From NCBI GenBank assembly GCA_002245135.1, contig NGBS01000002.1, positions 124,001-188,000 on the forward strand: a DNA stretch of 64,000 nt, read 5' to 3'. The stretch is from Proteromonas lacertae. Taxonomy: Eukaryota. The number at the start of each line of letters is the position of its first letter. Within the stretch, counting starts at the first letter, position 1. The notes beneath the pieces were generated by a model that made no database searches, was not told where the DNA came from, and was given only the letters and a program-made list of their open reading frames with translations. The translations under genes and the position numbers were made by a program. Of the stretch, positions 1 through 56,426 are shown piece after piece.

Positions 1-3000
1 TGAAATTCTATTGTTATTTATATAAACATGAATTCTTCTAACTCCTCTTATTACATCTTCATCATTCTTATTATAATTCCATATCTTTAAACCAGTTAAT
101 TTTTCATTTTTATCTAACTCTACATCTATTTTTATTGTTTTATTCCTATGATAATTAGTTAACCACATGTTTCTTTCATCACATGTTAAGTTATTTCCAT
201 TTAGAATATTATCTATTGTACTTTTATGATTGTTCATATAGTTATTTAATTCATTGGTTTCATCATATTTTAATTGATTTTTATTCACTGTAATTGAATT
301 CATACTTGTACCAACTAAGAAACTAATCCCAGTTAGACCAATATACTCATAATCCCCCCAATTCTCTAATAATTCTATTGTCACTTTATTACCACTATAA
401 TCATGTAATGCTTTCAATGATTGGTTCATTATAACTGGCTTTGGTGGTTGTATATTATTATTATTATCTTTTGATTTTATATCAATATCATCTTCTTCAG
501 GTATTTCAAACAAATCAGAGGCTTGAGTTAATAGAGGTGATGGTGTGGTATGTTTTTGGTTTAATAGTGTATTAGATACTGAAGTCATTGGTCTACCATC
601 TTTAGTATATACTCCATTAGATGATAAATTTATATTCTTAGGTAAAATATTATTATTACTTCTTCCTATTTCTCTTTTACGTGATAAATTATGTCCTTCT
701 GTAGTGAGTGGTCTGTTTTCTTCAAACTGTTGTAATGCTTCTTTTCTAAATGAATATGTAATATCTTCACTCTCTAATAAAGCTGTATCATTCACTTCTA
801 ATTTTGTTAATATATTCTCATCAACTGTAAATAGTATAATTTCACTACATTCTTCTATATTACTCATAATACCAGGAGCTTTTCTAATTTCACCTTCAAA
901 TATCAACTTTTCTTCATCATTAATATATATTTTACAATGTTTAACACCTCTATAGCTATATGTTCTACTCTTATTATAATTCCATATCCTTATCATTGAT
1001 ATTTTAGTTGGTTCATCAAGTGTAATAATGATATAATTCTCTTTACCAGGATTGTATGGAGCTAGCCAAATATGCAAATCATCTGAAGTGAAATTTACTT
1101 TATCTAATAAGTTAGTTACAACACGTGGATCTCGACCATAATCACATAATACATTGATATCACTTGGAACAGCTTTAATATTATGTTTAGGATTATCAAA
1201 TTCAATTAATTCACCTTTATCATTGTAGATTTGTATTCCATTTAATCCAATATAATTCATATCACCCCATGTTTCATTAAATATGAGTTTAATATTCTTA
1301 GCTAATGGTAATATTGGTATTTTTAAGAAATTAGATGAATCATTATTAGATGTAGGATATGCATTTGTATTATTAATTGGTTTGGAAGATTGTTGTTGTT
1401 GATACATTTGTTGTTGATTTTGTGGATTGGCAAAATAAGAAAGAATATCTCTATCAAGAGAATTAGACATATGAAATAATAGAGTATTATCTTTATTAGT
1501 TATTGATAGAGATGTAGAGGAGGAAGATTCTGTTGCTTTTGATGGTGTTTCTATGAGTGAATCATTCTGAGGCATTAGTCTACTTCTATTAGTCATATTG
1601 AAGTTATGCAAAGATTGAAATGTCTTATTCAAATCTTCATCAGTTTGTTTGACTTTTCTTTCTTCTAAAATCTTTGAATAGTCAGGTAATGGAGTTAATC
1701 TTTCTTCAGTAATACTATCTAAATTATTACTATTATTATTATTATTATTAATCTTTGCAGGATTACTATTAACGACAGTGATATTGGTAGTTGGAGGTGA
1801 TAAGATTGGATTTTTTAATTGGAATGGATTACTTGGTAATGATGAATTAGCAGTATTTGTAGCAGTGGTGTTATTCACATTATGAGATGATGGTAATGAT
1901 GATATAGGCTTTGGTGATATTTTACTATTCTTATTATTAATATCCAGTATTGGATCTGGAGTTTGATTGGTTTGAGGTGTTCTTAGTCTAATTGATGCTC
2001 TCTTCTTTCTTTTATTAGGAGATATTGACCAAGGTGTTTTATGAAAATCATTACTTGATAGATTACTGGTTAAAGTCTCATTGTTAATAGTAAATGAAGG
2101 TAAATCAGATGATTCACTTGTATCTATTTTCATTTCTTCTTGTTTGTTATTATTTGATGTTGTTATTGATCTTCTTGTTGTTGGAGGATTGGGTGAAGGT
2201 GAAGGAGAACGTGATGAAGTGGTAGGTCGAAGTGGAAATCCTTTTAATGGTTTAATTTCAACATCTTTAATACCAGTAGATGAAGTAGTTGTTTTAGGTT
2301 TGATTGACCTGTAGAAGGTGGTGTTGTGTATTGTATTGAAGTAGAATTCTCAAATGATAAAGTATCATTCATATTTGAATCAATAGGAGATTTATACTTA
2401 CTACCTGTCATTATTCTAGCAGTAACAGGAGGTTGTGGTTCTTCCAATGATTTCTGTAATTGAATAATAGTTGAGAAGTTATAATTCTGTAATCCAGTGC
2501 CTTTATCAATTATACCTTTCCATAGTAATTCATTATTATAATATATTTCACTATCTCTTACACAAATATCACTCATTTCTAAACTATGATTATAATTCCA
2601 TATTATTATCTTAGATAATGGTGTATTAATAGTTGATGAGATTAAGATAACTATATCAATTGGATTTTTATTATCAAAATTGCATTTCCACATATATTGA
2701 TCCTTTGTTGTGTTGTTAACTCCATTTATTAAATGACATAAGTTTTTATGGTTTAATAATAGTTTATTGTTGTTACATTTAAGTGATATATCATTTGATT
2801 TTATATCAATTGGCTTGAAGTTATTATCATATATTTCAATTCCACTAAGACCAATTTCATTTTTAAAGTCATTGTAATTACTTAATAACCGTATCCTTAA
2901 TTCATTCTATTAATTGTTAAATAAATACGTAATAATACACTCTCAGTTATTTTTTGTTTGATTGGAGCAGATATACGAGACAATGATTGTTGAATTAAAT

Positions 3001-3395
3001 TGATATTATTGGTAAGAGATTTATCTTTAGTTGAAGAACTTAAGGCAATATTGTCTGTATCTTTGAATGTATCAATTAAACCCAGCAATTGTTGTCTTTT
3101 ATTTGGTTCTAATTCTAAAATTTTCTCTATCAATTCCTAAGAACATTTGTTATTTATATGGCTATACTTTCATATCTCCCTTTGCATGTAAGAGTGTATT
3201 CATTGTAGAGCTCAAATTCTATAAATTAAAATATTACAAAATTACCAATGAAGAATCTAAGGTTGGTTTCTAGGAAATAAATCACCAATAACATACTGTA
3301 GGAGGATCTTCAAAATCATCCTCAAACTCATCTTCGAAATCATCATCGAACTCATCAAAATCGCCATTGTCATTGTTGTTTTTAGATGAAGACAT
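1..3395 (-). CDS. Katanin-interacting protein KATNIP/KIAA0556-like (DUF4457 repeats); 3' end runs off the window; one frameshift near 2310
   Basis: ATG at 3395 (MSSSKNNNDNGDFDEF), four ~30-nt GT-AG introns at 3298-2905, then repeated motifs (N/W)GDxxxIGL(T/S/N)GI, IRIWNYNKSR...RGVK, DPRVVTNLLDKVNFTSDDLHIWLAPY typical of KATNIP. Frame changes near 2310 with no obvious short intron. Confidence 0.8.
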
Positions 3396-3889: not shown

Positions 3890-5017
3890 ATGAGCACTTC
3901 AGTCACTAAGATATCAAACAACAGGGGTAACTCACCCATTAAAAAGCCTTACACTGTTTACATACAACATCAGATGATCGGTAAGGGTGGATTTGGAGAA
4001 GTTTATGATGTAACAGAGAAAGAAAGTGGTGAACACTTCGCTTTGAAATGCTGTAGCCATATATTTGATCATCCACACACAACTCACGAGATCTTAAGAG
4101 AGTTGCTATTTGGAAGGTTGTTAAACAACCCATATGTGATGTCAATTAAAGAGATATTGGTACCAGCATCTTTATCCCAATTCAACACAATTTGGTTCAT
4201 CACCGACAAAATGAAGTTCGATATGCGAAGGATGTTTATTAATAACACATCCTACACATTATCAAACGTGAAATATATTATGTTTCAATTATTTCAAGGT
4301 GTAGATTACCTTCATCGTGCAGGAATCATCCATAGGGATTTAAAACCAGAGAATATTTTATTCAGTGATGATAACAATTTTTCTCTAAAGATAGGTGATT
4401 TTGGTTTAGCTTGTATCCCAAGATCTAATAAGAAATTAACAACCTACACAGTTACAAGATGGTACAGAGCTCCAGAGCTACTACTAGAGTGTAACTATGA
4501 TAATTCAATTGATATGTGGTCTTTAGGTTGTATATTAGCTGAATTATTGTTGAATGGACATGTTTTATTCAAAGGCAAGAATCAATATCAGCAATTAGAG
4601 ATGATAATATCACTACTAGGAACACCCATAGAAGGAGAAGATGATGAAGATGAAGGAGGATCGTGGATAACTAATTCATGTGCAAAGAGATCGTTAATAA
4701 AGAAATTTGGAAATAGAAAAGGTAATTGGAATGATGTATTTAAAGGATGCAATGAAGAAGCAGTTGATTTGCTCCTTCATTTATTAAGATGGAATCCAAA
4801 CGAGAGATATACTGCTGAAGAAGCTTTAAAACATCCATTCTTCAATGATATTATGAGTACCTATGGTGAATTAATTCCAGAAAGCGTATTATATCCTAAG
4901 GAAGTGAAAAAGATTGATTTTGGTTATGATGAAAGCGCTTTATTTGATTACCAATTACAATCCAAGATTGTTGATGAAATAAAGTATTATCATCCCTATT
5001 TAGATGCTTCTACTTAG
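3890..5017 (+). CDS. MAP kinase-like CMGC Ser/Thr kinase, intronless, TTY activation motif
   Basis: 375-aa ORF with GKGGFG, ALK, HRDLKPEN, DFG, LTTYTVTRWYRAPELLL, DMWSLGCI. Confidence 0.92.
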   Translation: MSTSVTKISNNRGNSPIKKPYTVYIQHQMIGKGGFGEVYDVTEKESGEHFALKCCSHIFDHPHTTHEILRELLFGRLLNNPYVMSIKEILVPASLSQFNTIWFITDKMKFDMRRMFINNTSYTLSNVKYIMFQLFQGVDYLHRAGIIHRDLKPENILFSDDNNFSLKIGDFGLACIPRSNKKLTTYTVTRWYRAPELLLECNYDNSIDMWSLGCILAELLLNGHVLFKGKNQYQQLEMIISLLGTPIEGEDDEDEGGSWITNSCAKRSLIKKFGNRKGNWNDVFKGCNEEAVDLLLHLLRWNPNERYTAEEALKHPFFNDIMSTYGELIPESVLYPKEVKKIDFGYDESALFDYQLQSKIVDEIKYYHPYLDAST

Positions 5018-5301: not shown

Positions 5302-8300
5302 ATGGATAGAATAGCATATGTTATAATATTATTAATTATATTTCCATATATATTAGCTCAACCAGTTTTGCATGTTGGATATATTTCGGTAGATGAAGGT
5401 TCTGGTCCATCATCTGATTCTGTCTTTGATGATTTTAAGTCTCAAATAGATACAATATATCCAGGAAAAGTTAATTTTACTCGAGAAGAAATAATAGACA
5501 CCGGTGATAACTATGACACATTTTTGAAAAGATTCTCAGATAAGAATATATCTAACATATTCTCAGCAGTTTCTTTTAAGAATATGACAAAATTAGATGA
5601 AAGTTTGCACAAAAATGATTTGTTATTATGGACGTTAATTCCAAAACAACCAGAAGTATGTTATACCAACATTTATTCTTATATATCATTATTAAAATAT
5701 TATGAAAGATGTATGTATTATATTTTATTTATGTTTATTAATAGTAATTACCTATTACAGTGAAGAGAATCCAATCGCTATTATATATGAAGAGAATAAT
5801 TGGTTTAGTAGTATAGTAAAAGTGATTAAAAAATACGTTGATATATTAGGTGTAGATATACAGACTCCACATCCGTATATCTCAGGTAAAATGATTTCTT
5901 TTTCTTTTGAATATAATACTACATCAGCTTCAAATCTTGCTACTTGGGTTGATTTATTAGGAAATAATTTTGTAATATTATTAGCTGTAGGAAATGCATA
6001 ATTTACAAGCTATATTGACAGAATTAGACAGCGCAAGTTCAATTAGTAGCGATGAAGTAGTGTTATTAGAAAATGAAGATGTAAATTATTATGATTTGGC
6101 TGTTGTTCCAAGTCTACCAATTACTAATTTTGATTTGTATATTGTTAGCGTATACAATCAAACACAAACTGCTGCAGATATTTATGACTTAAGCAAAGTT
6201 ACAAATAAAGCAAATATAGTAAAAGTTATCAAATTGTATATATATATATATCACTTTTTATATCTTTATATTCTTTAATAGATGTACATTGTTCAAAGTT
6301 TTGTATTTTTCATTCAATAGAAGTCAATCTTCAACAGTAAAAAATGTATTATATGCAGTAAATAATCGAAGAGTACCAATTAATGGTAGAAACATACTGA
6401 TATCCTATTCACATATTATTCCTGCTCCATTATTTATATCAAAATATGATAAAGCCATTCCTTCAGATTCAAATGTTGTTAGAGTATTAGAAATTGATGA
6501 TTATTTTCTATATTCTGACATTATGGGCAGACCACAATTAACATGTTATTATACAACAGCATTTGAAGTGCCAAGACCAATGGAGATTGTTGCATTTATA
6601 CATTACTTAAGTAATAATGAACAAAAGAGATTTTAAACAATACAAAGATAATGTTGTTAATGAAATGAAGAATGAAAGATTGATCATTAGAAGCAGAGTT
6701 ATTGGCTTTGAAATCAGTAGAACAACAACCAAAACTACCTAATAATCTATCGATTAACACCCTTAATAATTGATGGTTCTAGAGGTATACAAACAGTTAT
6801 GGCATATATACAAGCATATACTCGAGCAGGATTACTTCATTATATATTTACAACATATGATAATGAAGATAGAGAGAATTTGTTAAGTTATATAAGGAAT
6901 AGTGGAATTATGGATATCGAAATAGTGTCAATGAAACATTTAACAGGTTTAGAATGTGTTGAGAATTCTATTTTCTCAGGAATATCAGCTCCAGCTAAAT
7001 TTGATATTTCTTATAGTTGGTATTTAAGAGATTCTGATTTACCAATTACAATTATTGGTAGCAATCATAAATATGGTAAAATGACTTCTAATTATTTCTA
7101 TAATCAGTTTTACAATTATGGATATGATATGGATAAGATATCTATATATCAAATGAAAGATAATTCATTATCTGAAGGTTTTAATGCTGTTAGTAAGATT
7201 CGTTCATTTTTATTTGATCGTATAAATACTATATTTTTAATATATTTTATAATTAGCATCTGTAAATACATCCACAAGTGAAGGTCCATATGGATATGCA
7301 ATTATTTGTTTAGAAGAAGGGTATTTAGATCCTTTAATAAAAGCTTACAGAACTTTGAAGTTAAATAAAAAATTCTATCAATTAATAATATTGGAATATG
7401 ATGAATTTTATCCATATGATAATGACGATGGTGATTATATATATTTTAGTGTTAAGGACCAACATACTGTTATTACTCCATTGGTGATGGGTATTCAAAT
7501 GTATGGAAGACATCTTGTAACACAGTTATCTACTGCAACAGTAGTTGGTTATTATGGTGTAATGTTTTTAGTACAATCTATCAGATCTGCAATGTCTACA
7601 TCATTTGGTGATATCAGGAAAATGTTTTTGAATGTTCATATTCCTGCGTCTGGTGGTGCAATTTCATTATCAAGAAGTGGTTATACATATATGAAATTGA
7701 ATGTTGTAAAAGTATTTCTATATTATTAGTATTTATTGTTATTATTTAATAGAGAATTGGAGAAAAGTTATATGAATATCCACATACAGCTCATGGTTCA
7801 TTTCAAGTATATATATTCAAAGATGAAGATTCTGCATACTGTGATCTTAGTAATTATTGTATATCATATATATAACATATTATTATTATTATTATATAGA
7901 TATAAAAGGTAATGAATTATTTAATGATATAAAGAAATATACTCTAGTTGGTTTATATCCAACAGATCTGTATGACAAGATATATATGAGAGATATTACT
8001 GAACTAACAATTGTTGCTTGTGATATGATCAATGCATATGGTGGTGCACTAAATGGATTAATTATACCATCTTTTGTGAGATATAAAAAGAATATAATGG
8101 AAGTTGATGAGATAATAAAAGAATATTTAGTAGATATATCGACGATTGGTTTTATTGGATTATTAACAAGAGAAGAAAGAGAATATCTTAATCCATCTTT
8201 AATTAGATATGATAAAGTATTACTTTTACCATTCCCATTTGAAGGTAATTCATGTGAAGATAATACTTTAGTTATATCATTTTTTCTATTTATAATATCT

Positions 8301-11300
8301 ATTGTTTTCTTAATTTGATGTTTACTATGCCAGAGTTGCTGATAATAGCCTTTATATTGCATTAGATTTTATGTTTTTAGAGTCAACCAATTGTGCTGTT
8401 TATTATGCTAATAATTCGTATATAGATATAAATTGTATTGTTAATAATCAATAGAATTGCTGTAACTTTAATTGATTATATTGAAGCTCATTTGCAGAAA
8501 CGTAATTATGGAAATGAATGTACTTACATTCCATATTCTAGTGAAACATCCATTGATAATTTGACAGAAACATGTGAAGGTTATAATGATACAGGTGGAG
8601 GTTTTATATTTACTATATTAAATGATGATTTATATGATATGATTGATAGATTACCAATAGAATGTAAAAACCCAAAGATAAAGTTTTATCATTATTATTT
8701 CTCACCTAGAGATATACCAATAGGCAGATATAAGAATGTAACTAATTTAGATGGCCATATTGTTGTAGGATCTTATTTCCATTATGTAGAATCAAAGAAA
8801 GCAAAGATAGTAGAAGCGAATATTGTGCAAACTATTGGCTTACCTGAAATACTAATGCAGGAAGATTTCTTATCCATTTATGAGATTATTTCTATCTATG
8901 GTAAAGCTATGACAGGAGAAAGGATCACTTTCAGCATTATCAGTATTAAATTACTTCAAAAATCTAAGAGTTGATACATCAGAAGCTGATGATATAGTTG
9001 TTTCAAATTCTAGATATTTTTCTAAAGGTTTTTACTTAGGACAAATTGTATGTAATGGTAATGAATGTGATGTTAAAGAGTATAGAACTTTACCAACTCC
9101 AGTATTAAGTAATGCATTTAACTCTGATGTATTTATTGTTAATTATATATATATATATATATATGAATAGATGAAAGAAGGTGAGGATTTAGTATGTAAT
9201 TTCTATGCATCTAGCAATGATATAAAAGGAATGTCAGTTCCATTGCATTTTGGTGTAATTTTTGATGATCCAAAGAATGAATATAACCAGAGAATAATGT
9301 TGGAATTTACATGGTTAGAATCATATTTTAGAGATGCTGGATTATTTGATGGAAGATTGATTGTATAATTCTTAATATTATCTATTTATATAAATAGATA
9401 ACTCATACATTCAAATGTCCAACTACTAGTGAATTACTGGATGAAATGGTTGAAAGCATAAGAAAATATGAAATAAAGGTTTTCATTGGTGGTTGTAATA
9501 CAGACACTATTGACACGTTTGCTAAAAATGACACTTTGAAAAATACAATATTGTTTTATACTGACTTAAACACTGGTAGTATATGTAAATCAAACGTTAT
9601 ATTTGTGTGTCCAACTCCATATCAATTCATTTCAAATACGATGAATTATTTGTTAATTAGACAAGGTAATAATATCGCATTATTCTATGATTCTAGTTCT
9701 AGAATCAAAGTTTATGCGGATATAGTTTTAAATTCGATAGAATCACTGAATTTGAACTTAGTATATAATGGTGATATTAATGATAAGGATTATGTCAAAG
9801 TGGTAGAAAAAGGCATTCAACTGATCAATACATTAGAAATGAATACTCTTTATGTTATTAATTTATTAGAAAACAGGAGCAGCTGATTATTTCTATCAAT
9901 ATTATCACGATTTTTTTAAAGGTGAAATACCAATTCCTGTATATTCATTAATGTCATATTTTGCCAAAATTGATCCTTCAATTACTGCAAATCATTATGT
10001 TATATCTAATAAACTATTCCCAACCAATGATAATGGTTTAATTGAAAAATTACAACATTTCTTTGGTGATGAATATATATTTAATGGATTTGAAATTAAT
10101 TATTTAATGCCGTTTTACTTATTAGCTGAAGCTATTAAAGATACGTTGAAAATGACAGCTGAAAGTATTTTGCATGATGTATATTATGGTGAATATGATA
10201 CTCCATTTAATAAGCTATTTGTTACACCAGATAATACTATTTCTCATTTCATTGCTGTTATTAAAAAAGATGGAGATAATAATCTAAATTCAACTGGAAA
10301 TGTAATTATGAAGTTTTATGAAGGAAATGTGTATAATGAAAAGTATTATGATTCTATTTTGTATGGTTGTAACTGGAGATCATCAAGGACTGAATCATAT
10401 TTAAAATCAACTGTTGGAATTGGTATATTATTATCTTTAAGTGGTCAATTTATGCCACAAGACAAGGAGCTATTAACTTCTTATTTATTAGCTGTTTCAC
10501 TAATTAACTGTGAATATAATGGTGTGAGAGGATTAACAGTTAATCCAATAATAAAAGATATAAAATCAAATAAAAATGAAATTGAACCATTGTTGAATGA
10601 ATTTAAGAATGCTGGTGTATATATCATATTTGGATTAACCAGTTCTGAACTTAGAGTAGTTGCTAAACCATTTATTGAAGCTAATAATATGCTATTATTC
10701 TATGCGCATGATTATGAAGGTTTAGAATGTAGTAAAAATATTGTATATATTGGTTTACCTGCTACAGCTAATGAATATTATCCATATTATATCTTAACAG
10801 ATCAAATTAAGAACAAAATTAATGTAGTTATTGTATATACAGAAACAGATACTATCAATCGAATGAGAAGAGTAGTAACAGCAGCATTAAACAAATATGA
10901 TATAGTAGTAACAAAAAATATACCAACAAAATATGGTTTAAAGAATTACGCATATATAATCAATCAATTATTACAATATGCTGTTCCTTCTTGTATAGTA
11001 GTGACATTATTAGAAGGACCAAACATAATGAATTTTTATAACTTGACTTATGGAATTCCAGTTCATTTATATGCAATTGGATTAGACAAAAGTCTTATAA
11101 CAATTGAGAATTACAAGTTATTTAGAGGACATCATATTATTACAGCTGAATCAAGTATAGATAATCAAATGAGTAAATTAATTGAGATGTATAGACGAGC
11201 TTTATTTCCATATGCTGATACAGTGTCTCAGAATATGTTGTATTCTATTACATCTGTTTTAGTATGGAGAGCTGCTTTAGAAGCAAAGAAATCAGTTACT

Positions 11301-14300
11301 GTTGATAATATACTAACAGCACTGTATAATCTAGATGTAGAAACCCCAATGGGTTTGTTGAATATAAATTCAAATCATCATTTGAATATTCCAAGATTGA
11401 TATTAACTGTAAAAGTAGTATATGGTGAATATCAGATTGTAGAAGAATATAGAAGTAAAAATGTAAGACCAAATCCATGGAAATCACCATTAATAGATGA
11501 AAAGATATATTATTGTAAATGGGAAGGAGTTAATGATGAAGATAAAGTATTAGAACTACAGTATAATGCTAATGTGTTATTATCTAAATCTGAGCCAATG
11601 TTCTTAGATATTTTAAGTGGAGCTGTAACTGCATATGCTCATATAAGTGAAACAGGTGGATTGTTAGGACATGAACTCAATTTTGTATTATTCTTATATG
11701 ATGATGATGACAGTGAATTGTATGATAAATTATATGACTTTTTGAGTAAACCAATGAGATTATTCTTATTTGGTTGTACAACTCCAAATTGTGCCAATTT
11801 AATAAAGTCAATATTACCAGTAACAAAATCATTCATATTTTACCCATTACCATCAAAAGGTGAAGAATGTAGTTTATTCCAGTTAACCATTGGTCCATTA
11901 CCCAATCAGATTGTAGAATCTACAATCAACTTCATTACAAGCCAAGAATCTAAACATAATGTGATTATATTATTCTCACCAGATGATAAATGGGATGTAT
12001 ATAGAGATGTATTCATCAATAGTATACCATCACAATTAGACCTTAAGAATGTATATGAATTTGGAGATTATGATTTTTTTTCTTATTCTGATTATGAGAA
12101 AGTATGGAAAGATTTAGGTGATGGAGGTGTAATAATTAGTTTTTTATCTGAAAGACCAATGTTATCATTCGTAGAAGTAATGAGTCAAAATGCACATAAC
12201 TTTAAAATATTTGATATTATAACAATAAGAGTTTCACCAACTACCATATTTTCACAGTTTTACTCTGAATTATTACCTTTGTATTATCCAACTGGACTTG
12301 ATTTACCTGTTAAAGATGATCCATTAATTCAAATATTAACTACTGATGTATATAAATATAGTGGTGTAGATTATACGACTGATGTTACTGTTACATCAGC
12401 AATATGTGTAGAAGCATTAGGTAAAATTGTAAGATCTGGAGGTACAAATGATGTGCAGGAATTAAAGAAGATTATATTTAACACTCCATTAACAGATGAT
12501 GGAAAGAATTACATTGATTATAGTTTCTATTCAGTCAGAAATATTTATATGTATAATTATACTGGTTCTTCAGCTTCAGTAGCAAAAGTACTGATAAAAG
12601 CAATACCACAACCATTCAATTGGTTAGCTGAAGGAAATAAAGGTAAAATGTGTGATGTTAGAAACGTTGATATGTTTGGAAATGGCAATCCAATTTATAA
12701 GAAAGATGTAATGAAGATATTATTTGTAGTATCTGAAACTGGCGCTGATAGATTTAATTACAGAGGAATGTCTGCATCCTTCCAAGAAGCAATTAACCAA
12801 ATCAACAAAATGGATGGTGTAAGAGATAAAACATTAGAATATGAAACAATAGATGATGAATCAGAATCAACTAAATGTGCTGATATAATAAAGTCTAAAG
12901 TAATGACAGGAAAATTTGAAGCTGTATTTACAACAGGTGATGCTCAATGTATGGATTTAATATTAGAAACAGTGAATCAATATAATATTAAAGTATTCCA
13001 AATAGGAATGTTTGGAGGAGAATCTTGTGAGAATAATATTATACATATTGGTATTGATCCATCCCAAATGGAGTTGTTTATTGAAAGATTATTGAATAAA
13101 GGTATTAGATCTTATGCTATAGTTGGTGTATCAACAACTACAAGTATTAGATTCACTAATTATGCAGAAAGATTTATTAATTATTTGCATGGTGATATGA
13201 TGTATACAATATCATTAGATATTGGTGTTACTAATTTAGATAGCACTGCTTCCTCTATAGTTTCAAGATTACCAAATGGCGGTGCAATTTTATACTTTGG
13301 TACTGCTTCATTACACATTCTACTATCTCGATCATTGAAAAAAGTTGGTAAGAATTTGGATAAGATTTCATTTGTTTCATTTTCAACAGCAGAAGAAGTT
13401 TCTTCTCAAGGAGATATATTAAAATTCTTTTCAGTAATGCATTATTTCAATTCTATTCAAACTGAAGCAAATGATGCATTTATTGATCATTTGAAATCAC
13501 CATTACCATCAGATACAGTTCCAAATCATCTACATGAAGCTATTTATACAACTTTGTTTATGTGGAGAGAAGCAGCAAATAGTCAACCAGATGTTCCAAT
13601 GTCTGAATTGAATTATTATAATCAAGTATTTGGTACAACTGTTGGTACAATGGAAATAGCTACTAATAATATAGTTAAAAGGAAGGTGTATATTGCTGTT
13701 TATGATGGTAATAATAAAGAAGGTAAATTTAGTATATATTCTGTGGATGATATAATAAGACCAAAAGTATGGCAGAAGTTTATTAATTCTGGCATATATG
13801 AATGTGATTTATCCAATCCAGAAATTGGTTCACAATATAAACATTCTAGTAATAAAATAGCAGTAATGGCATCTTTGACTGGTGTTGATGAATTAAAAGG
13901 AAGAGAATTAGTATCAGCAACATTATTAGCAGTAGATGAGTTGAACAATGATGGTGGATTGATAGGTGAAATGATAGAAGTGGAAGTGGTGGATATAAAA
14001 TCAGATCTTAAAGCGTTAGAAAGAATAAGTAAAGAAACAGCAGCATTGAAAGCAGTAACAGCAGCATTTGGTGCAAATTGGGATGATGAATATAAAATAA
14101 TTGAGCCATACTTTTCACAAGTGGATAAACTGTATTTCTTCCCAGGTGTATCTACAGGTGAGTTATGCCATCAATATGGTATAGTTACTGGTTCAACAAT
14201 GAATCAAATTATAGCTGAAACTAAAGCTGTTTTGACTCAGAGAGATGTTGATTATATTGTGATGTATAGTGATTATTCATTCTGCATAAATGCATTGCAT

Positions 14301-17052
14301 TTATTAGAATCATTGTTTGACACTTTATTGATCAGTTATAAATCAATTTTACTAACAGATTCAAATATAAGCGAAGTAACTGAACAAGTGTATAAAGATT
14401 TTCCAGATGGTGCTTATATATTAGATATAAGTTCAGGTTATACATCCATAGAATTTGCTGAAGCTTGTATTGAAAATCAATTAATATATCCAAAGTTCAT
14501 GTTTTACCACTTTTTAATGGATGAATTTACAATAAATACACATTTAAAAGCATTTGAAAGACATATATTATTCTCCTCTTGGTCGATCTGCTCTAGGTAC
14601 AAATCCATTAAGACAATACGAAAAGAGTAGAGAATTCTATCAAAAATTCATAAAGAAATATGGTGATACAATAATAGTAACAAGTGCAGCTGAAGCAATT
14701 TATGTAGCAATAAAACTATGGGCTTTTGGTGTAAGAGAAGCATTTTCCTACGATGGTAAAGTAGTAAGAGATGGAATGGCTGGAGTAAGACAACAAATAG
14801 CTGGTGGTTATGTAAGATTAGAAACAAATAACATGTTATCCAGGAAATTATATGCTTTTACAGTAATAAATGGTAAAATTGAAGTTACAAATAGTCCAAG
14901 TGGTTTATTATATCCTGATGCATTTAGTAGATGGGTATATGAGAATGAAGGTAAAGATTGTGATTGGTTAAATAAGAATGGTATGTTTTATAGAGATAAA
15001 ATGATTAAATTTGGTGTAATTCTAGAAGATGATTTTGAAGCTAGGAATGATGTATATAATGCTTGGTTTGCCATTGATTTAGCAGTTCGAACATTGAATG
15101 ATGCAGGTGGAATAAATGGTTACTTTATTGTGGTTGAATCTAGGATTGTGAAGAATAATGAAATTTTTAATACATCTTTGGAATTAATGAGTAGTAAGAA
15201 TTACACTGTTATTTTTGGTTGTTTATCCGAAGAATGTCGTGATATAGTTTCACCATTAGCTGTTACATATAAGAAATTATTCTTTTTCCTAGGTGATAAT
15301 ACTGGTGAAAGTTTTTCAATTTATACAATTCAAATAGGTTCAACCATACATCAAAAAATGTTAATATCATTGAAATATACACAAAAATTCTATAAGAATT
15401 ATTACATACTAAGTGATAATACTTTAAGTGATTTATATTATAAAATACCGCAACAGATGGTTAGTGAATTGCCAAATTCAGTTTTATTAGGTACAAAAAT
15501 ACTTCATAGTGATTTAGATGCAACTTCATTCTTTTATAACATATATAAAATGGATCGTGACATAGATCATTTGATTATATTTACAGCAATTTCAACTAAG
15601 TATATTGGTAAATGTTTAGATTTATATAATCAATACAATTTATTATCAAGAAGAGTGTATTTTATATTTGTTAAATACAATCATTATACATTTGAAATAT
15701 TTGATTTATCAAAATTATCTGGTAGTTTTATACCATTGCCATACTATCAGAATATAGATACAACTACAAACACTGCTTTTGTAAAGAATGCTGAAGATAT
15801 ATACTCTGATAATTTCTATTTATCATCAATCTATGAAACTACTTATGATACAATAACCATCTACAAAGAAGCAGTTTTAATAGCAAAGGCATATGCTGCT
15901 GGGGAAGAATGGCCTTCTACTGATTATATTAGATTATCATTGATTAATTTAAGATATCAATCACCATCAGGTTATATAACAATATTGAATAACAATTATG
16001 CAAAGAGACCAATGTATTTAATGTTAATACTTGGTCAATCTTCATTTTTACAAATACATCCTGAATTAGGTTATTCTGAAGAATGTGAACCAAATCCTTA
16101 TATTAATGGGACTCCAGCAGGATATGAAAATACAAAGTATATCGAAATCATTGAAAGAGATTTAGTAATCAATTACATATGTTTTACACTTGGAGGTATT
16201 AATATCATCATTGTCTGTATTTGCTTCTATTTCACTGTAAAATACAGAAAAGTCAGAATTATTCATTGTTTATCAGTCAGTTATCATTATTGGTTCTTAT
16301 TAGGATGTTTGGCTTGTATAATGTCAATAATGACAATGGCAATTACACCATCACCAACATCTATTATCTGTAGGACAAGAGTGGTATTTATGCCATTCGC
16401 TTTAACTCTTTTAACATCAGCAATGTGTTATAAGACTATTGTATATAGATCAGTGAAGAGGAAGAGAGTTCATAAGATTAGAATTCAAGCTTGGAAGTTA
16501 GTAAGATGGTTTATAATTACATATATTATACCTTTTATATTGACAATATTATATTTATCAGTTAGTGGTAGTGAATATAATGAAGAGATTGATATAAATA
16601 AGTCATCTTATTTAGTTACTAAAGTATATAAGACATGTACTAGTAATGATACATGGATAGCCGTATTTGCATTTTACTTTGGTATTTATTTATTCTTTAC
16701 AACATTTATGGGAATTTTGACTAGAAAAGTTGCTAATGAATTTTATGATTCTTATATTTTATGTGTTTCCTCTGCTTTTACATTCATTTTAGGATTTGTA
16801 TTATTTGCATTGGATTATGTTATTGGTGAAGATATTAATTCGAAATTAGTTTTAAGAGGCGTTGGATATCAGTTAATTGTTTTGGCAGTTATATTATTAC
16901 AGTATGTACCGAAGTTTATTGTGAAAGTAACGAATGAAGAAGCTTTAGATGAAACTGATTCTATTATTCGAGATGTAGATAGAAGTTCAGTAACTTCTAT
17001 GTCAAGAACAACAATGAGTATGACAAAGACATCAACTAGAACTCATCAATAG
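5302..17052 (+). CDS. Giant class C GPCR-like receptor: signal peptide + ~9 tandem type-1 periplasmic-binding (Venus flytrap, UrtA/AmiC-like) domains + 7TM; frameshifted in this assembly
   Basis: Signal peptide MDRIAYVIILLIIFPYILAQ. About 9 short introns at 5711-9397. Repeats of ~370-390 aa with G(I/V)LxSLxG...LAVxxINxxGG...FG...L(F)Y...EGxECSxN, each ending P(W/F)...CxW/L. Terminal 7 hydrophobic helices (~16160-16925) with class C-like C..R, KT, TRKVxxEFxDS and YVPKF. Confidence 0.85.
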
Positions 17053-17183: not shown

Positions 17184-18356
17184 ATGAAACAAATCTTTAT
17201 TTTATATTTTAGTTTTACTATTGTATTAGGCTGTTATAAATTTTGTAATGGTAATGGTAAATGTGGAGCTAAGGACAAGTGTGACTGTTATATTGGTTGG
17301 GGAGGAGCAGATTGTTCTTTAAGTATTTAATATAATTTATTAATTTTCATACTAGGAGCTTGTCCTTATGGTGAAGCTTTAATTGATATACCTTTGGGAG
17401 ATTTGAATCATGATGGAGATGTGGATGATAAAGCTGTTAAAACTGATTTTAGGCCAAAATATGGAATGACTGAGAATTTAAAAGGCTATGTAACAAAATC
17501 CAGAGCACATCGTTATGCTGAGTGCTCTAACACTGGAACATGTAATAGAAAAACTGGTGAATGTGAATGCTTCAATGGCTATGAAGGTAGTGCTTGTCAA
17601 CGTCGTCAATGCCCATCAAAAGTTGCTGGTGTGAGTTGTAGTGGACATGGCATTTGTATGAGTAGTACAGCATATGCTAAAGAGCAAGGAAGTACTTATT
17701 ATGGTTGGGAATTGGATAAATTCTTAATGTGTAAATGTGATGATGGCTATGAAGGAGTTGATTGTAGTTTGAGACAATGTCCTTATGGATTTGATCCTGT
17801 GTTATATAGTGGTACAACAATGAAGTATGTGATTGAAGGTGAAAATATAAAGAAGTTTACAAATTCAATTAGTTTTTATTTTCAAATAGATTATGATGGT
17901 AGAACATACAATACTCCAGTAGTATTTCCTTTAGAACCAGCTATTATGTGTCCTGGATGGAATAAAGATATATCCGCTGTTGCAATGTATCAAGAAGAAA
18001 TTAAAATAGCATTACAATCAACATTTCCATTAAGCCAATCAAGAGTATTAATATCATGTTCAACTGATACTACACCTACATTAAAGCAAATAGAGATTAT
18101 TGTTGATTCTATAGATCCAAGATTATTCATTAAATCTACTCTCCAAGCTGTTCAGGATAATGGTCATAATCTATTTGATAAAAAAATCAATGGACAAATA
18201 TTTAACAAAGGAAGTGAAATTACTAACTTAAAGAATGTCAATATCCCTACACTTTGTTCAAGTCGTGGTTTATGTGATCAATCTACAGGATTATGTAATT
18301 GCTTTCAAGGATATTACGGTTATACATGTGAGGTGAAATTAGCAGTTCAGAGTTAA
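17184..18356 (+). CDS. Secreted Cys-rich EGF-repeat protein, stramenopile mastigoneme (Sig1/Ocm1)-like
   Basis: ATG 17184 with signal peptide (MKQIFILYFSFTIVLG), intron 17323-17355, EGF motifs CNGNGKC, DCSLRACP, DIPLGDLNHDG, AHRYAECSNTGTCNRKTGECECFNGYEGSAC, CPYGFDP, terminal CSSRGLCDQSTGLCNCFQGY. Confidence 0.8.
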
Positions 18357-18462: not shown

Positions 18463-19844
18463 TTAATAATTATACTCTCTTGCTGTTAATATCTGTTTAG
18501 CAAAACCAGCAAACTCTTGAGGTGTACTTGCTTTCTTACAAAATGGATGTTCTAATAAATCAGCACAACTAGCACGTTCTTTAGGCTATTTATAATAATA
18601 ATATTATTATATTATATTATATTATATATATATACATCAGTTTTCAATGCTTTAGCTAAGAAATCATTAAATTCATCTGACCAACTACTTGGATCCTTCG
18701 GAGTTGGGCTACTTTCAGATATAATCTTCAATAATGCTTGCATAATAGGTAAATCAATCCATGGTGGTTCTCCATCTGCCATCTCTAGTGCTGTTATACC
18801 CATAGACCAAACATCAACTTCACTTCCATATTCATTACCTCTAATCAACTCAGGAGCCATCCAATAAGGTGTACCAACGACAGATTTACGTTTATCATGT
18901 TCTTGTGTCAAACCTACAGCAAATCCAAAATCAGCAATTTTCACTCTACCATTCGTATCTACCAATATATTATCACTCTTTATATCACGATGTAATCTAT
19001 GATGTGAATGCATCTCTGCTAAAGCACTGCATAACTCTCTACATACATACGCGATATGTTCTTCAGGGAAAATGATTCCTGGTCCTAATATATCAGTTAG
19101 CGGACCACCAGTCATTAATTCCATTACAATATATAGTCTATTATCCCATATGAAATATTCATAAACTCTTACAATACTTTCATGTTTACAACTACTCTGT
19201 ACGACAATCTCATTCTTAATTGCGTCCATTTCTGAGATTGGACAGCATTTAATGGCTCTTTTACTACCATCTGCTTTACAGATTGCTTCATAGACTTGTC
19301 CTGATGCACCTTCGCCTATTTTGTCTAGTAATTGATATGTAATTTCTGGATTTCTTTCTTGGAACACTACTTTATCTGCAGTTATTTCTTCATCTTCCTT
19401 CTTTTTAATTGGCTGAACTGCTTCTGGTACAGCTCTGTTAGGACCTTGTGTTTGGAACTTCAATACATCTAATACTTCCTGCGGATGTTCTTGAATTTGT
19501 TGTTTTGTTATATTAGAAGATTGCAATAAAGCCATCCATTCTGGAGGTAAATTATCAAAACCGAAAGGATTATCTGGATTTACAGTAACATGTACTTTTC
19601 TTACAAAGCAAGTAGGTTTTGAGATTTTAGAATCAGAAGAGGATGATGCTATTTGGGTTGATTTCTTAAGTTCTGGTGGTAGAGAGTGTTCTGCTTGAAT
19701 TGTTGCATTCTTTTTTAGATGATCTGGTAGTTGATCATATATTTCTTTAGGTATATTCTAATGAAATGAAATAAAGTAAATTTATACTTGAAGACTGTTA
19801 TCAATATGAAAAACTCGCTTAAAACCAGTGACGTTGCTACTCAT
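18463..19844 (-). CDS. PAK/STE20 family kinase with CRIB/PBD region
   Basis: ATG 19844, introns 19787-19758 and ~18634-18586; ISKPTCFVRKVHV...LPPEW CRIB/autoinhibitory region; GEGASG, HRDIKSDN, DFG, SVVGTPYWMAPE; stop at 18463. Confidence 0.92.
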
Positions 19845-32229: not shown

Positions 32230-35200
32230 ATGTCTCAGCAAGGAGAGCAGAGAAGTATAAATGTAGCAGTGAGAATGAGGTGTTTAAATCAGAAGGAGGT
32301 ATATATTTTATTGAATTACGAGAAATAGATACAAAAAGGTGATACCTATTCATGGCTATGTGATCTTGAAACAAATACTGTTACATCTGTTTGTACTAAG
32401 GATTGCAATAACTTAACATCATATCCTGTTGGTATATTATATTACTGTTTATAGAAATATATAGATCATGTATTTGATGAAAAGCATACGTCAGAAGATG
32501 TATATAAAGCTATAGGTGAGCCAATTATTAACGATGTACTTCAAGGTATAAATGGCACAATATTTGCCTATGGTCAAACATCATCTGGCAAAACATACAC
32601 AATTCGTGGAACATTGGAACATCCAGGAATTCTATATTTATCATCTAAAGACATTTTTGACAAAATCAGGAAAGCATCAGATAGAGACTTTATCATAAAA
32701 GTGTCTTATATTGAAATATACAATGAAACATTAAAAGATTTATTAGATCCAGATAGACCTCCACAGATCAGAGAACATATCGAAAAAGGTGTATATTTAG
32801 ACTGTACAGATTATACAATTACAGACATGAAGCAAATTGATAATTTAATCCAACTGGGTGAAAGTAATCGACATATTGGAGCAACTAAAATGAATGAAAG
32901 AAGTAGTAGATCTCATACCATCTTTCGTATTGAAATAGAAAGTAAATCTCAGGATTTAGATGATGATAGAACACTAGGTGCAATTTTGAATATAGTTGAT
33001 TTAGCAGGTAGTGAAAATGCCAAAAATACTGAGGCTAAAGGTGATAGACTAGTTGAAGCAGGTTGTATTAATAAATCACTATCCACATTAAGTTTAGTTA
33101 TCAGTCAATTAGCTTCAAATAGTGTTGGTCATATTAACTTTAGAGATAGTAAATTGACTAGATTATTACAACCATCGTTAAATGGTAATACTCGTACTTC
33201 TATTATTGCATGTATTAGTCCAGCAAGTAGTAATCGAATGGAGAGTGAAGGAACATTGAAATTTGCATGTAGAGCAAAGAATATTGTGACTGTAGTTAAA
33301 CAGAATAGTGGTTATAGTGATAATATTAAAGATATTGCTTTATTAAAGAGAGAAAAGTATGATTTGAAGTTACAGATAGCTGAATATGTTAGTTCAATAA
33401 ATGATTTGAATGATAAGATAACTAAATATGAGGAAATTGATAGATTATATAATAATATACTGGAATATATATCTAAGAATTATGAGCCAAGAATATTACA
33501 ATATATTGAGAATATAAGTGATGATATTGTTGTGGAAGAAAATGAAAACGCAAATATTATTGTATAAATATTAATATATTGATTATTATAATGCTATTGT
33601 AATAGAAATTAAAACAAATTGATGGAATAATCAATTACTTATTGAAAGTTCAAAAAGACAAAGAAAATGAGTTTAATAAAACATCTGACAACTTAATATC
33701 AATGTTACAGAAAAATACAGATGAATTGACACAATTTAAACAACAATATACAAGTGTATTATTATTATTATATTATTTTATTTTTATTAATAAATAGTTG
33801 GATTTAAAATACAAAGGATTAACTCAACAATATAAACAATCACAAGAAAAAATAAATGAATTACAAAACCATTTAAATGAGAATGAAAAACAAATCAAAA
33901 ATCAATCTGACACAATAACTCAGCAGAAGAATATGATAGTAGAATATAACAGCAACATTGACAAACTGAATAATACAATTACAGATACTAATAATAAGTT
34001 AAACCAATTAACAGAGAATCATTTACAATTAGAATCAGATAATGATAATAAAAAGAAGATTATCGTTGAATTAAATCAAGAAATTGGTAATATAAAGAAT
34101 GAGAATGTAAAGAAAGAGAATCAAATAACTGAACTTCAAACAGAAATAGAGACTATTCAACAAACTAAAGATACATTAGACAAAGAAAAGTTGAATATTT
34201 TGAATGAAATAACTGCTGTAAAAGTAGAAATCACTAAGAAAGATAACATTATTAGTAATTTACAGAATGAATTGAGTGAAATGAGTAGTAAAAATGAACA
34301 ATTATCAAATCAATTGGAAGAATTGAAGATAAAGAATAAGAATCTTGAAACAGAGTTTAGTGATAAGAAGAATGAGTATGAAAATCTTATTATCACATTA
34401 AAGAATGATTTACATCAAATACAGAATGAAAAAACACAAATAAACAATCAGAATGAACAATATAAAGAAGAAATAGATAAAATGAATATTAAAATTAATC
34501 AATTAGATGATAAAATAGCTGGATTAAATGAAGATTGTAATAACTACCAACAAGAGATAACTGAATTAAAAGAATTGAATGAAAAGAACCAAAATGAATA
34601 CATAAAGAAAGAAAATGACTTAAATGAAGAGAAACAATACTTATTAGTGAATTTAGAGCAAATAATTGAAGAGAAATCAGTTCTTAAACAAAAATATACA
34701 AACAACCAAACACAAAGTGAAAGTAGAATTAACAAATTAGACAATGAAAAGAATAATTTATTAGATACAATCCAAACAATGAAAAGTGATTATGAATATG
34801 AAAGAAATCAAAGACAAGCTGAGTTTGAGAATATAAAATCACAATTTGAATCAGAAATTAGCTCTAAGAATAAAACTATTAATGAATTAGAAAGTCATAA
34901 TAACCAAATACAAGAGAAATTAATAGAAACTGAAAATAATATGAATAGATTGAGAGATGAATCAGAAGATACAATAAATCAATTAAAACAGAATATAAAA
35001 GAATTAGATGAGGCAATTGAGTTAGGTAAAGAAGAAAATGAAATGAGAATATATGAATTAACCAATGAGAAAATAGAAAAGATGAATGAAATATCTTTAT
35101 TACAATCATCGCTGGAGAATTTGAAACAGATTCAAAACCAACTTAATGAAGATAATAACCATAATAAGAATATGATAAATCAGTTAAACGTAGAAATGAA

Positions 35201-38200
35201 TAAGAATAAAGAAGAATATAATGCCAATATAAACACTATCCAAAGTCAATATAATGAATTGAATAATCAATTGCAAACACTTATAGTAGAAAAATCACAA
35301 TTGAATGATTCATTAGTAGAATTACAATCTCAATATAGTAGTTTAAATGATGATTATAATAGAATGAAAGAAGATAATGATGAAATGAATGAGCAAATAC
35401 AAAATTATAACAATGAATTAGATCAATTAACAATTATATATGATAATAAAGATGTAAAGCATAATGAAATGATAGAAGAGAAGAATGGTGAGATTGAAAA
35501 GTATCAGTCGAATATTGAGTTATTAACTACACAAAAAGAAGAATTAGAGAATAGAATTAATGAAATGATTAACCAGAATAATGAACTAAGTAATAAGTGC
35601 ATTGAATATGATTTAAAGATACAACAACTTAATGAGAGTCATAGTAAAGAAATGAATGAATTGAATGAGAAGAATAACACTATAACACAAGAAAGAGATT
35701 CTATTCATAGTAATTATGAAGATTTAAAGGTTAAATATAATGAATTAGAGAATAAATTCAACGAGTTACAAAGCAATTCTGAAGTATTAAATGAGAATAT
35801 AAAGTCAAAAAATGAACAAATTAAACAATTAAATAATACAGTTGAAGAATTGAGACTTGAAATTTCAAATCTCAACCAAACAATTGAAGTAAAAACAAAT
35901 GAATATAATAAATCCATACAACAATTAGAACAGGAAATGAATGAGTTAAAATCACAATATGAATCAGACTTAAACTCAAAATTACAATTAATATCAGAGT
36001 TAGAAGAAAAGAAAATGAATTTAGATAATCAACTGCATGAAAATGTGACAGAATTGAATGAATTAAAAGATGAATATAATGCCAAAGTGAATATATGGAA
36101 TGAATCTGAGATAAATTACAATAAACTATTATTTGATAATGGTGAAACAATCTCAAACATGAGAAATGAAATAGCTGAAAAAGAGAATAATATTCAAATA
36201 ATTAGTGGTGAAAAAGATGAATTGAATAATCAATTACAACAAGCAAAAGATGAAATTACCAAATTGCAGTCTAATATTAGTGAATTATTAAGTAATAAGA
36301 GTTATATAGAGACTTATACATCTAAAACAATTGGATCATTACAAAACCAAGTGAATGAATTGAATAATGAAATATCATCAAACTTATCTATTATTAATGA
36401 TTTACAAACACACTCAAATGAATTAAATGAAAAAATAAAACAAGAAAATAGTGAGAAAATGAATATTAGCAATGAATATGAGAGTTTTAAACAACAAAGT
36501 GAAGAATTGATATCTCATTTAAAGAATGAACAGAATGAATTAAATAATCAATTACAGTCTAAAGAGACAGAAATACAACAATTAAGAAATGAAATTGAGA
36601 AAGTAAAGGAAGCTAATGAGTTAAATGACAATAATAGAAATAAAGAATATAAAGATTATCAAATGGAAATGGAAAGTATGATATCCAATCTAAACATAGA
36701 AACAGAACAATTAAAGAAAGAAATTGAAAGTAAAGAATCTTCAATTAATGAGTTAAAGTTGACTATTAATGAATTAGAATCAACACTAAACAAAGAAAGA
36801 GAAGAAAATGATAAGAAAATAAATAATATGACTGAAGAAAATAACAAAAATATTCAATTATTAGAAAATACTAATAAAGAATATACGATATATAAGAATG
36901 AAGTAGAAATGAAAATATCCGAATTATCCAATCAAATCGAAGAATTGCAGCTAAATATAAAACATTTAGATTGTGAAAAACAATGTAATATAAACGAAAA
37001 TGAAATAGCTAAAAAAGAAATTGTTAGAATTCAAAACGAGAATGAGATGAAAATAAAGGAATTAATGGATGAAATAAGTGAAAAAGAAGAAGAAACTACC
37101 TTACTAACATCATCAATAAATGAGTTAAAAGATGTACAAAATAAATATAATGAATTAACTGAAGAAAACAATAGAAATATTGAGAAAATATATGAATTAG
37201 AAAATAGAATTTCAACTAATGAAAGTGAATATAACAAAGAGAAAATAGAGTTTGAAATACAAATAAAAGAACTGAACTTTGATTTACTGAAGGAAATAGA
37301 AAGTAAATCAGATTTAAATATGAAACTAAGTGAATTAGAAAACAATTCAAAACAAATAATAGAAGAAAAAGTGTCATTACAAAATGAAATACTCAAACTT
37401 CAACAACAGAATCAAAGTGAAATATCCAATCAACAAAGTGAATATAATAAAACAATTGAAGATTTAAAGAATGAATTAAATGAAAAAGAACAATCTGTTA
37501 ATGATACAAATATCAAATTATTAGAAAAAGAAAGACAAATAAATGAATATGAAATGAATATTGAAACTATGAGTGAAGAGTTAGAAACATTAAAGAAAGA
37601 AATAAAAAGAAAACAGAATCAATTAAATAATGTTGAATCAGATTTAACAGAAAGATATAATATATTAAAACAGAATAATGAGAAATATGAATTACAAATT
37701 AAAGAATATGAAAATGAGAAAATGTTATTAGAATCTAATATCAATGACTTAACTCAACAAGTTAAGAATATGACTAAACTTAATGATAAGATTGTTTTAT
37801 TATCAAATGAGAATAATGAATTGAAACAAAAGGTTGAAATAGACGAAAGTGAGATAGAATCATTAAAGAATAAATACAAAAATTATGAGATAATTAATAA
37901 TGAAAATAATAAGAAAAATGAAAAGATCGAATTATTATCAAAGGAATTAACTAAAGTACAATTTGAATATAACAATATATTAAGCCAATATAACAATCAA
38001 AATGAATTATTACAAAAGATGAGAAATGATAAAGACTCATTAAAGAAGAATAGCAATGAATTAATTCAACAATATCAATTGTTAGTAGATAGTAATAATC
38101 TATTAACAGATAAAGTGAATAAATACGAAACAACTATTCAAGAACAGAATGAAATGATTAAAACAATAAAATCAAAAATAGAATTATTAGAGAATAATAA

Positions 38201-56330: not shown

Positions 56331-56426
56331 TTTAACATATTTATTTCATTTAGTTTTGAATGATGATTAATTTAAAATCGGTTTGATCGATAATCGAGTA
56401 ATAATCGATAAATACTCGATTTTAAA

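What the first reader, a model, noticed from the sequence alone, without database searches (positions are those of the whole stretch)
10410..16110. Receptor ectodomain repeats look like bacterial UrtA/AmiC (urea/amide-binding) proteins
Repeat 5 reads VGIGILLSLSG...LLAVSLIN...PIIKDIKS...IFGLTSSELRVVAKPFIEANNMLLFYAHDYEGLECSKNIVYIG. This tracks the UrtA consensus as I recall it (VGILHSLSG..LAIEEIN..FGCWTSASRK..LLxYPVQYEGxExSxNIxYxG); GPLPNQ in repeat 6 matches GAAPNQ. The repeat-ending PxPW...CxW also resembles the UrtA C-terminal tail. Inference: a laterally acquired ABC substrate-binding gene fused to a eukaryotic 7TM and then amplified, i.e. an independent origin of a flytrap GPCR that may sense urea or amides.
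Basis: partly seen in the sequence, partly recalled or inferred. Interest (0 to 1): 0.78.

Follow-up and report, generated by a model that had tools for sequence, protein, structure and literature searches.

The report
GPCR with nine bacterial urea-binder domains
This gene, likely from a flagellated protist, joins nine tandem domains related to bacterial urea-binding proteins to a GPCR-type seven-helix membrane domain; its own copies lack the urea-gripping residues and likely bind something else, while relatives in other eukaryotes keep them and are predicted to be urea receptors.

Summary
Observation confirmed. The gene at 5302-17052 (+) models to 3813 aa: signal peptide, nine tandem UrtA/AmiC-family (PF13433) domains, then 7tm_3. 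Repeat 5 scores 117 bits on PF13433 against 12 on ANF_receptor; its PDB hits are UrtA and AmiC. The fusion is not private to this lineage: relatives with 2-10 such domains plus 7tm_3 include a chytrid protein and unnamed metagenome proteins; a dinoflagellate carries the domains on another membrane module. Eukaryotic repeats form one clade (100/97) next to cyanobacterial-type UrtA (98/96), but the donor is sensitive to rooting. Urea sensing is not supported here: all nine repeats keep 0-1 of 5 key urea residues, whereas 24 of 36 repeats in the less diverged relatives keep 5 of 5. Repeat 5 alone has a conserved, acidified pocket, pointing to a cationic ligand. Eight reading-frame breaks may be sequence errors or decay. 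Other bacterial binding domains on 7tm_3 are in print; this UrtA-derived tandem family was not found in my searches.

The parts
5302..17052 (+). Whole gene model, 3813 aa, 8 short introns in my model and 8 reading-frame breaks
   Evidence: Codon-model parse and hand-adjusted model without in-frame stops; collinear over residues 62-3276 with the unbroken relative P0010 at 20% identity
5302..5358 (+). Predicted signal peptide
   Evidence: Hydrophobic N-terminus (hydropathy 2.3); no signal-peptide predictor was run
5488..6463 (+). Repeat 1, very diverged UrtA-like domain
   Evidence: 20 bits on own family profile; no Pfam hit for its pieces
6662..7917 (+). Repeat 2
   Evidence: 61 bits
7953..9216 (+). 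Repeat 3
   Evidence: 105 bits
9336..10389 (+). Repeat 4
   Evidence: 87 bits; 41% identical to P0003 repeat
10386..11544 (+). Repeat 5, the only repeat with a family-conserved pocket (acidic residues at the UrtA Gln144 and Asn246 positions)
   Evidence: PF13433 117.5 bits; model pLDDT 89.7; pocket counts
11598..12663 (+). Repeat 6
   Evidence: PF13433 36.3 bits
12687..13854 (+). Repeat 7; its tail closely resembles the Synechococcus UrtA tail
   Evidence: PF13433 85.7 bits; alignment to 7S6E
13824..14977 (+). Repeat 8, with a one-base frame break near 14583
   Evidence: Five close relatives read through this site without a gap
14977..16102 (+). Repeat 9, membrane-proximal, pocket and cysteine pair both lost
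16177..16930 (+). Seven-helix class C (7tm_3) domain, then a Ser/Thr-rich tail to 17052
   Evidence: PF00003 73.6 bits over cut-off 33.5; best PDB hits GABA-B1/B2 at about 20 bits

Best explanation
The gene encodes nine tandem UrtA-family binding domains fused to a class C seven-helix domain, and it likely acts as a cell-surface GPCR-type receptor whose ligand is predicted to be a small cation or amine bound in repeat 5 rather than urea. Shown: the architecture, the UrtA ancestry, the loss of the urea residues and the conserved acidic pocket of repeat 5. Inferred: a bacterial UrtA domain, probably of cyanobacterial type, entered eukaryotes once and became a reusable receptor ectodomain; in the less diverged relatives the distal repeats still close on urea while the membrane-proximal repeat has lost its pocket and serves as the stalk that passes the movement to the helices; a cysteine pair pins each repeat's tail and stiffens the chain. 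In this lineage the array was fixed early, most pockets drifted, and repeat 5 swapped two amide side chains for acids and lost the tyrosine that binds the urea oxygen, which would suit a charged urea look-alike such as a guanidinium group. G-protein coupling, dimer formation and expression are untested.
For: Architecture. Chimera: in P0001 and P0104 mGluR/GABA-B chains match only the 7TM region while the repeats match UrtA best (388 and 327 bits; AmiC 161 and 109). Profiles built from diverged repeats alone score every named bacterial UrtA above the AmiC-like rows, and both above LivJ/LivK, in 7 of 7 position classes, the archaeal UrtA being the exception. Mixture-model tree of 44 rows: 23 eukaryotic repeats 100/97, with 4 cyanobacterial-type rows 98/96; same topology without the tail columns, 92 and 93; AU test against placing the diverged repeats with AmiC-like and archaeal rows p=0.036. 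Pocket: urea residues from PMC10392092; window 0-1 of 5 in 9 of 9 repeats, relatives 5 of 5 in 24 of 36; the last repeat is degenerate in 6 of 6 less diverged proteins that reach a membrane domain (P0001, P0095, P0104, P0178, P0179, P0180). Repeat 5 class: Tyr141 13 of 14, Asp at 144 10 of 14, Glu146 12 of 14, Ser122 9 of 14, Glu/Asp at 246 9 of 14. Cysteine pair: both present in 69 of 83 eukaryotic repeats, both absent in 7, one only in 7. 7TM keeps the TM3 Lys, the TM3/loop-2 cysteines, an acidic residue before TM6 and the TM7 PK motif aligned to GABA-B1 (their roles are recalled).
Against: No ligand or signalling data. Eight frame breaks in this copy. FastTree on all 269 domains placed the diverged repeats outside the UrtA clade with other long branches. 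Adding three giant-virus homologues lowered the eukaryotic clade to 89 and, as rooted, put it beside all bacterial UrtA rather than beside cyanobacteria. The 7TM domains do not show one fusion: window versus P0001 54-58 bits, window versus chytrid P0104 below zero, P0001 versus human GABA-B2 65 bits. Pocket assignment rests on alignments at about 22-26% identity. Bacterial rows came from the best 150 of 771 hits to repeat 5 plus 16 named rows, so the true donor group may be unsampled. Cysteine counts are not independent of kinship.
Confidence: 0.55

Rival explanations
1. This receptor itself senses urea or short amides.
For: Clear UrtA ancestry; repeat 5 keeps Ser122, Tyr141 and Glu146; Asp and Glu can still accept hydrogen bonds from urea's amino groups (inference).
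Against: Trp120, Gln144, Tyr190 and Asn246 are all changed in repeat 5, and each single change strongly reduced or abolished urea binding in UrtA (PMC10392092); no repeat keeps more than 1 of 5.
Confidence: 0.1
2. The ectodomain is now mostly structural: a long rigid stalk or adhesion/mechanical sensor in which no small-molecule pocket matters.
For: Pocket positions vary freely in position classes 4, 6, 7, 8 and 9 while the fold cysteine is kept; repeats are only about 18-28% identical to each other yet their order is kept (73 of 85 relative domains best match the expected window repeat, hand count).
Against: Repeat 5 has a family-conserved pocket-lining motif.
Confidence: 0.2
3. This copy is a decaying pseudogene of a functional family.
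For: Eight breaks in 11.7 kb, more than in any other gene the same parse found in the window.
Against: No in-frame stop in the model; the parse calls all eight as one-base gains, a one-sided pattern more like read errors (the one at 8316 may instead be an intron with damaged ends); a conserved ciliary gene in the window also has a break; relatives read through the sites at 9875 and 14583.
Confidence: 0.15

Closest known systems
UrtA, urea-binding subunit of the UrtABCDE ABC importer (TIGR03407, PF13433; PDB 8HIC, 7S6E, 7S6F, 8TG1)
   Same: Fold (Foldseek ranks 1-6, TM about 0.81), sequence family, and a cysteine-bearing C-terminal tail shared with cyanobacterial-type UrtA.
   Different: Nine copies in one eukaryotic, intron-bearing gene fused to 7tm_3; each repeat far below the UrtA cut-off (100 versus 492.75 bits for r5); urea residues lost; no urt transporter gene among the window ORFs scanned.
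Class C GPCRs (mGluR, GABA-B, CaSR) with an ANF_receptor flytrap
   Same: 7tm_3 domain with GABA-B as nearest solved relative; a type I binding-protein fold outside the cell; no cysteine-rich NCD3G linker, as in GABA-B.
   Different: Ectodomain from the UrtA subfamily, not ANF_receptor; nine lobed domains in series instead of one.
Non-animal class C receptors with other bacterial-type binding domains: Bmp (Dictyostelium Grl, Allomyces), OpuAC, SBP_bac_1, LysR_substrate, PBP_like_2 (PMC3251606; PMC10445921; PMC3971589, whose supplement also lists a pooled 'Peripla_BP//7tm_3' architecture)
   Same: 7tm_3 recruiting a periplasmic-binding-protein ectodomain other than ANF_receptor.
   Different: The passages read name no UrtA/PF13433 domain, tandem array, donor group or urea pocket; N-termini there reach 1667 residues, here about 3500.
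AmiC, amide receptor of the Pseudomonas amidase operon (PDB 1PEA, 1QNL)
   Same: Same Pfam family, used as a sensor and not for transport.
   Different: More distant than UrtA by PDB score (40 versus 63-78 bits), by class profiles and in the tree.

Membership tests
UrtA/AmiC family (PF13433) | Score above the Pfam cut-off of 27 bits | tested here: met
   r5-r9 score 36-118 bits; the unjoined pieces of r1-r4 fall below it
UrtA proper (TIGR03407) | Score above 492.75 bits per domain | tested here: not met
   r5 100 bits, r7 87 bits
UrtA proper (TIGR03407) | Urea pocket Trp120, Ser122, Gln144, Tyr190, Asn246 | tested here: not met
   0-1 of 5 in 9 of 9 repeats
UrtA proper (TIGR03407) | Free or lipid-anchored subunit encoded with urtBCDE | tested here: not met
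   Fused to 7tm_3; neighbours are a protein kinase and an EGF-repeat gene
Class C GPCR | 7tm_3 domain above cut-off | tested here: met
   73.6 bits versus 33.5; six hydropathy peaks over 1.8 in that region, TM3 falling under the threshold
Class C GPCR | Extracellular binding-protein (flytrap) fold after a signal peptide | tested here: met
   Model and fold search (the alignment behind the model was rich in UrtA-like rows); hydrophobic N-terminus
Class C GPCR | G-protein coupling and dimer formation | not testable with these tools
   No genome held, so even the presence of G-alpha genes is unknown
ANF_receptor-type class C (mGluR/GABA-B like) | Ectodomain belongs to ANF_receptor (PF01094) | tested here: not met
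   11.8-16.3 bits or no hit, below the cut-off of 25.4; GABA-B and mGluR chains first appear at Foldseek rank 42 and 44
ANF_receptor-type class C (mGluR/GABA-B like) | Repeats group with ANF flytraps in a tree | not testable with these tools
   No ANF_receptor ectodomain was available as a stored protein

The most novel reading that the evidence does not exclude
A cyanobacterial-type UrtA entered eukaryotes once and founded an undescribed family of class C GPCRs with up to ten flytraps in series, spread over fungi, alveolates and stramenopile-like protists; members with intact pockets are true urea-sensing GPCRs, and this lineage retuned one repeat to a cationic urea look-alike such as guanidinium.
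Probability: 0.3. Interest if true: 0.85.

Novelty: new variant of a known kind. Interest (0 to 1): 0.66.

Why it matters
The mGluR/GABA-B flytrap is too diverged from bacterial binding proteins to trace. Here the same kind of capture is readable: relatives have repeats 38-52% identical to cyanobacterial UrtA with the urea pocket intact, and the window shows a later, retuned stage. That gives a predicted ligand for orphan protist and fungal class C receptors, a possible urea-sensing GPCR (I recall none described; my searches are listed in the full report), and a natural test of whether a chain of flytraps can drive one seven-helix domain and how many of them are needed.

Tried and rejected
No genome held. 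Sequencing runs: none was listed, so expression and the frame breaks could not be checked with reads. Word-based protein searches with repeat 5 found nothing at near or longer lengths; the longer range stops at 2000 aa. Exact look-up of the neighbouring kinase: not in the collection. Single-sequence fold failed (pLDDT 31.9). Metagenome contig scans with the close-relative alignment and with P0095 confirmed 0 of 595 and 0 of 55 stretches; viral scan with P0144 0 of 2. The Atlas search with the C-terminal ORF returned ordinary 7tm_3/ANF clusters; it covers only clusters of 50 or more. A first cysteine count was void because the fast alignment misplaced the tail column; one search replaces it. 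Position-by-position correspondence between the window's nine repeats and the nine of P0001 or P0179 was sought and not found. Stop-triggered programmed frameshifting was rejected for the 14583 site, where relatives place the shift about 45 bases before the stop. Blastocystis as host seemed unlikely: the window has a ciliary DUF4457 gene and a Sig2-like EGF gene, and Blastocystis lost nearly all cilia genes (PMC12129017, passages). The wide VIA-align search was not obtained. No complex prediction was sent.
Full report
Setting. The window is AT-rich (GC 22-31% in 2-kb blocks) with short GT-AG introns of about 26-67 bases in a codon-model parse. It holds a ciliary DUF4457 gene and, next to the receptor, an EGF-repeat gene whose nearest Atlas clusters are Sig2-like proteins, commonest in oomycetes. 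A flagellated stramenopile is my inference; no genome is held.

The gene. A model from the ATG at 5302 to the stop at 17052 gives 3813 residues without an in-frame stop: a hydrophobic N-terminus, nine domains of about 390 residues, and a seven-helix domain. The large ORF scores E 7.9e-86 on PF13433, 7.3e-75 on TIGR03407 and 1e-7 on ANF_receptor; the C-terminal ORF carries 7tm_3 at E 2.7e-20. All 6 PDB sequences matched by the large ORF are UrtA-type or AmiC proteins. A model of repeat 5 from a 51-row alignment (pLDDT 89.7) finds UrtA at Foldseek ranks 1-6, AmiC at 7-10 and GABA-B/mGluR from rank 42; the alignment was rich in UrtA-like rows, so this is not independent.

Frame breaks. The parse needs eight one-base gains in this gene and few elsewhere. 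The one near 8316 may be an intron with damaged ends (the modelled residues there are implausibly hydrophobic). Five close relatives read through the site at 14583 without a gap, and P0003 and P0009 read across 9875. The ciliary gene has one break too. One-sided gains without stops favour read errors, but no run was listed to test this.

Relatives. A search of 1.84 billion representatives with repeat 5 gave 771 hits, of which 150 were listed. I scanned 87 of the 150 with Pfam: 9 carry PF13433 plus 7tm_3 (P0001, 6, 8, 12, 24, 29, 42, 95, 104; P0042 under the 7tm_3 cut-off, cut short). Many others are bacterial signalling proteins with one such domain. A search with P0001 among proteins of 2059-6554 aa added P0178, P0179 and P0180. 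Two groups appear. Twenty diverged proteins follow the window's repeat order (73 of 85 domains best match the expected repeat; hand count, offsets chosen after seeing the table); six of them are 33-42% identical to the window, and the nine looked up are known only from Logan assemblies. The second group is far less diverged: P0001, P0178, P0179 (9-10 domains plus 7tm_3), P0095 (3), P0104 (2; Phlyctochytrium bullatum, KAJ3101170.1) and P0180 (4 domains with Ephrin_rec_like repeats and no 7tm_3 hit; EukProt Pfiesteria piscicida). Their intact repeats are 38-52% identical to cyanobacterial UrtA. In P0001 and P0104, solved mGluR and GABA-B chains match only the 7TM part and the repeats match UrtA. 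The host taxa of P0001, P0095, P0178 and P0179 are unknown, and contamination of the two named records is not excluded.

Ancestry. FastTree on 269 domains put 27 of the 36 less diverged repeats in one clade (97) beside cyanobacterial UrtA (P0041 clusters with Alkalinema, P0144 with Synechococcus), but drew the window's repeats to the base with other long branches. With a mixture model on 44 chosen rows (12 diverged, 11 less diverged, 21 prokaryotic; LivJ/LivK and r1-r4, r9 left out), all 23 eukaryotic repeats form one clade (100/97) joined to four cyanobacterial-type rows (98/96; two of the four are unnamed). Dropping the tail columns keeps this (92, 93). An AU test rejects, narrowly, the diverged repeats sitting with AmiC-like and archaeal rows (p 0.036). 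Profiles built only from diverged repeats rank less diverged eukaryotic repeats and cyanobacterial-type UrtA at the top in classes 4, 6, 7 and 8, with mixed tops in 3, 5 and 9. Against this, adding three viral-collection homologues (L018-L020) left the eukaryotic clade at 89 and moved the root so that it lies beside all bacterial UrtA. So UrtA ancestry and a single eukaryotic clade are well supported; a cyanobacterial donor is about even odds. The 7TM scores do not establish a single fusion, and P0180 shows the domain on another membrane module.

Ligand. In Prochlorococcus UrtA, Ser122, Gln144, Tyr190 and Asn246 bind urea and Trp120 is required (PMC10392092, results section read). Mapped by alignment, 24 of 36 less diverged repeats keep 5 of 5; the window's nine keep 0 (six) or 1 (three); 38 domains from eight diverged relatives keep at most 3. 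The last repeat before the membrane is degenerate in 6 of 6 less diverged proteins that reach it. Among position classes 4-9, only class 5 has a conserved pocket: Tyr141 13 of 14, Asp at 144 10 of 14, Glu146 12 of 14, Ser122 9 of 14, Glu or Asp at 246 9 of 14, Tyr190 absent from the top residues. Two amide-to-acid changes and loss of the oxygen-binding tyrosine suggest a cationic ligand; this is inference. A cysteine after the pocket motif and one in the tail are both present in 69 of 83 eukaryotic repeats, both absent in 7, suggesting a disulfide; the paper does not mention one.

Mechanism. Shown: architecture, ancestry, pocket states. Inferred: binding closes a repeat, the movement passes through tail-pinned neighbours to a pocket-less proximal repeat and on to the helices, as in GABA-B, which also lacks a cysteine-rich linker (recalled). 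How repeat 5, four domains from the membrane, could signal is the weakest step; a folded-back ectodomain or a dimer would be needed.

What is in print. Class C receptors outside animals carry Bmp, OpuAC, SBP_bac_1, LysR_substrate and PBP_like_2 domains (PMC3251606, passages; PMC10445921, passages; PMC3971589, passages and supplement search, which lists a pooled Peripla_BP//7tm_3 architecture; its supplement file 1 was not searched and the figure itself was not seen). An Entamoeba flytrap protein without 7TM is proposed to be of bacterial origin (PMC12965686, passages). PMC12716839 had no 'peripla', 'venus' or 'urea' in main text and none of the three terms in its one supplement. Searches for a description of this family found none in the listings. 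The library lacks most subscription journals. Earlier scan notes held nothing on this family; two on giant-virus UrtA led to the viral check.

Verdict. Observation confirmed; interpretation partly supported. A new variant of a known kind, interest 0.66: the stronger lead is the family, whose intact members give a direct test for a urea-sensing GPCR.

Noticed in passing
window 1-3376, - strand: DUF4457 (KATNIP-like, name recalled) ciliary gene with one frame break near 2300; runs off the window start.
   Followed up: partly
window 17184-18356, + strand: EGF-repeat gene nearest to Sig2-like clusters, commonest in oomycetes; resembles flagellar-hair proteins (recalled).
   Followed up: partly
window 3890-5017 (+) and 18465-19844 (-): A MAPK/CDK-type kinase directly upstream of the receptor and a PBD-bearing (PAK-like) kinase downstream.
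   Followed up: no
window 56412-56990, + strand: ORF matching DUF6512 (E 1.2e-27), a family I recall as bacterial; possible further lateral transfer.
   Followed up: no
window 32230-39212, + strand: Kinesin gene with a coiled-coil tail of about 1800 residues in one unbroken exon.
   Followed up: no
L018 3641-5266 and L019 3848-5251: Viral-collection contigs encode membrane-tethered UrtA homologues next to a small membrane-protein gene; L018 has the same cysteine-bearing tail as the eukaryotic repeats. Their place in the tree is unresolved.
   Followed up: partly
P0180: Dinoflagellate protein with intact and degenerate UrtA domains in pairs, Ephrin_rec_like repeats and a multi-pass membrane region without a 7tm_3 hit: a second receptor type using the same module.
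   Followed up: partly
P0007, P0016, P0017, P0035, P0101: Bacterial-looking proteins with an UrtA-like domain at each end, two of them with HEAT repeats between.
   Followed up: no
L001 217-1416: Treponema plasmid UrtA-like gene directly after an adenylate/guanylate cyclase gene.
   Followed up: no
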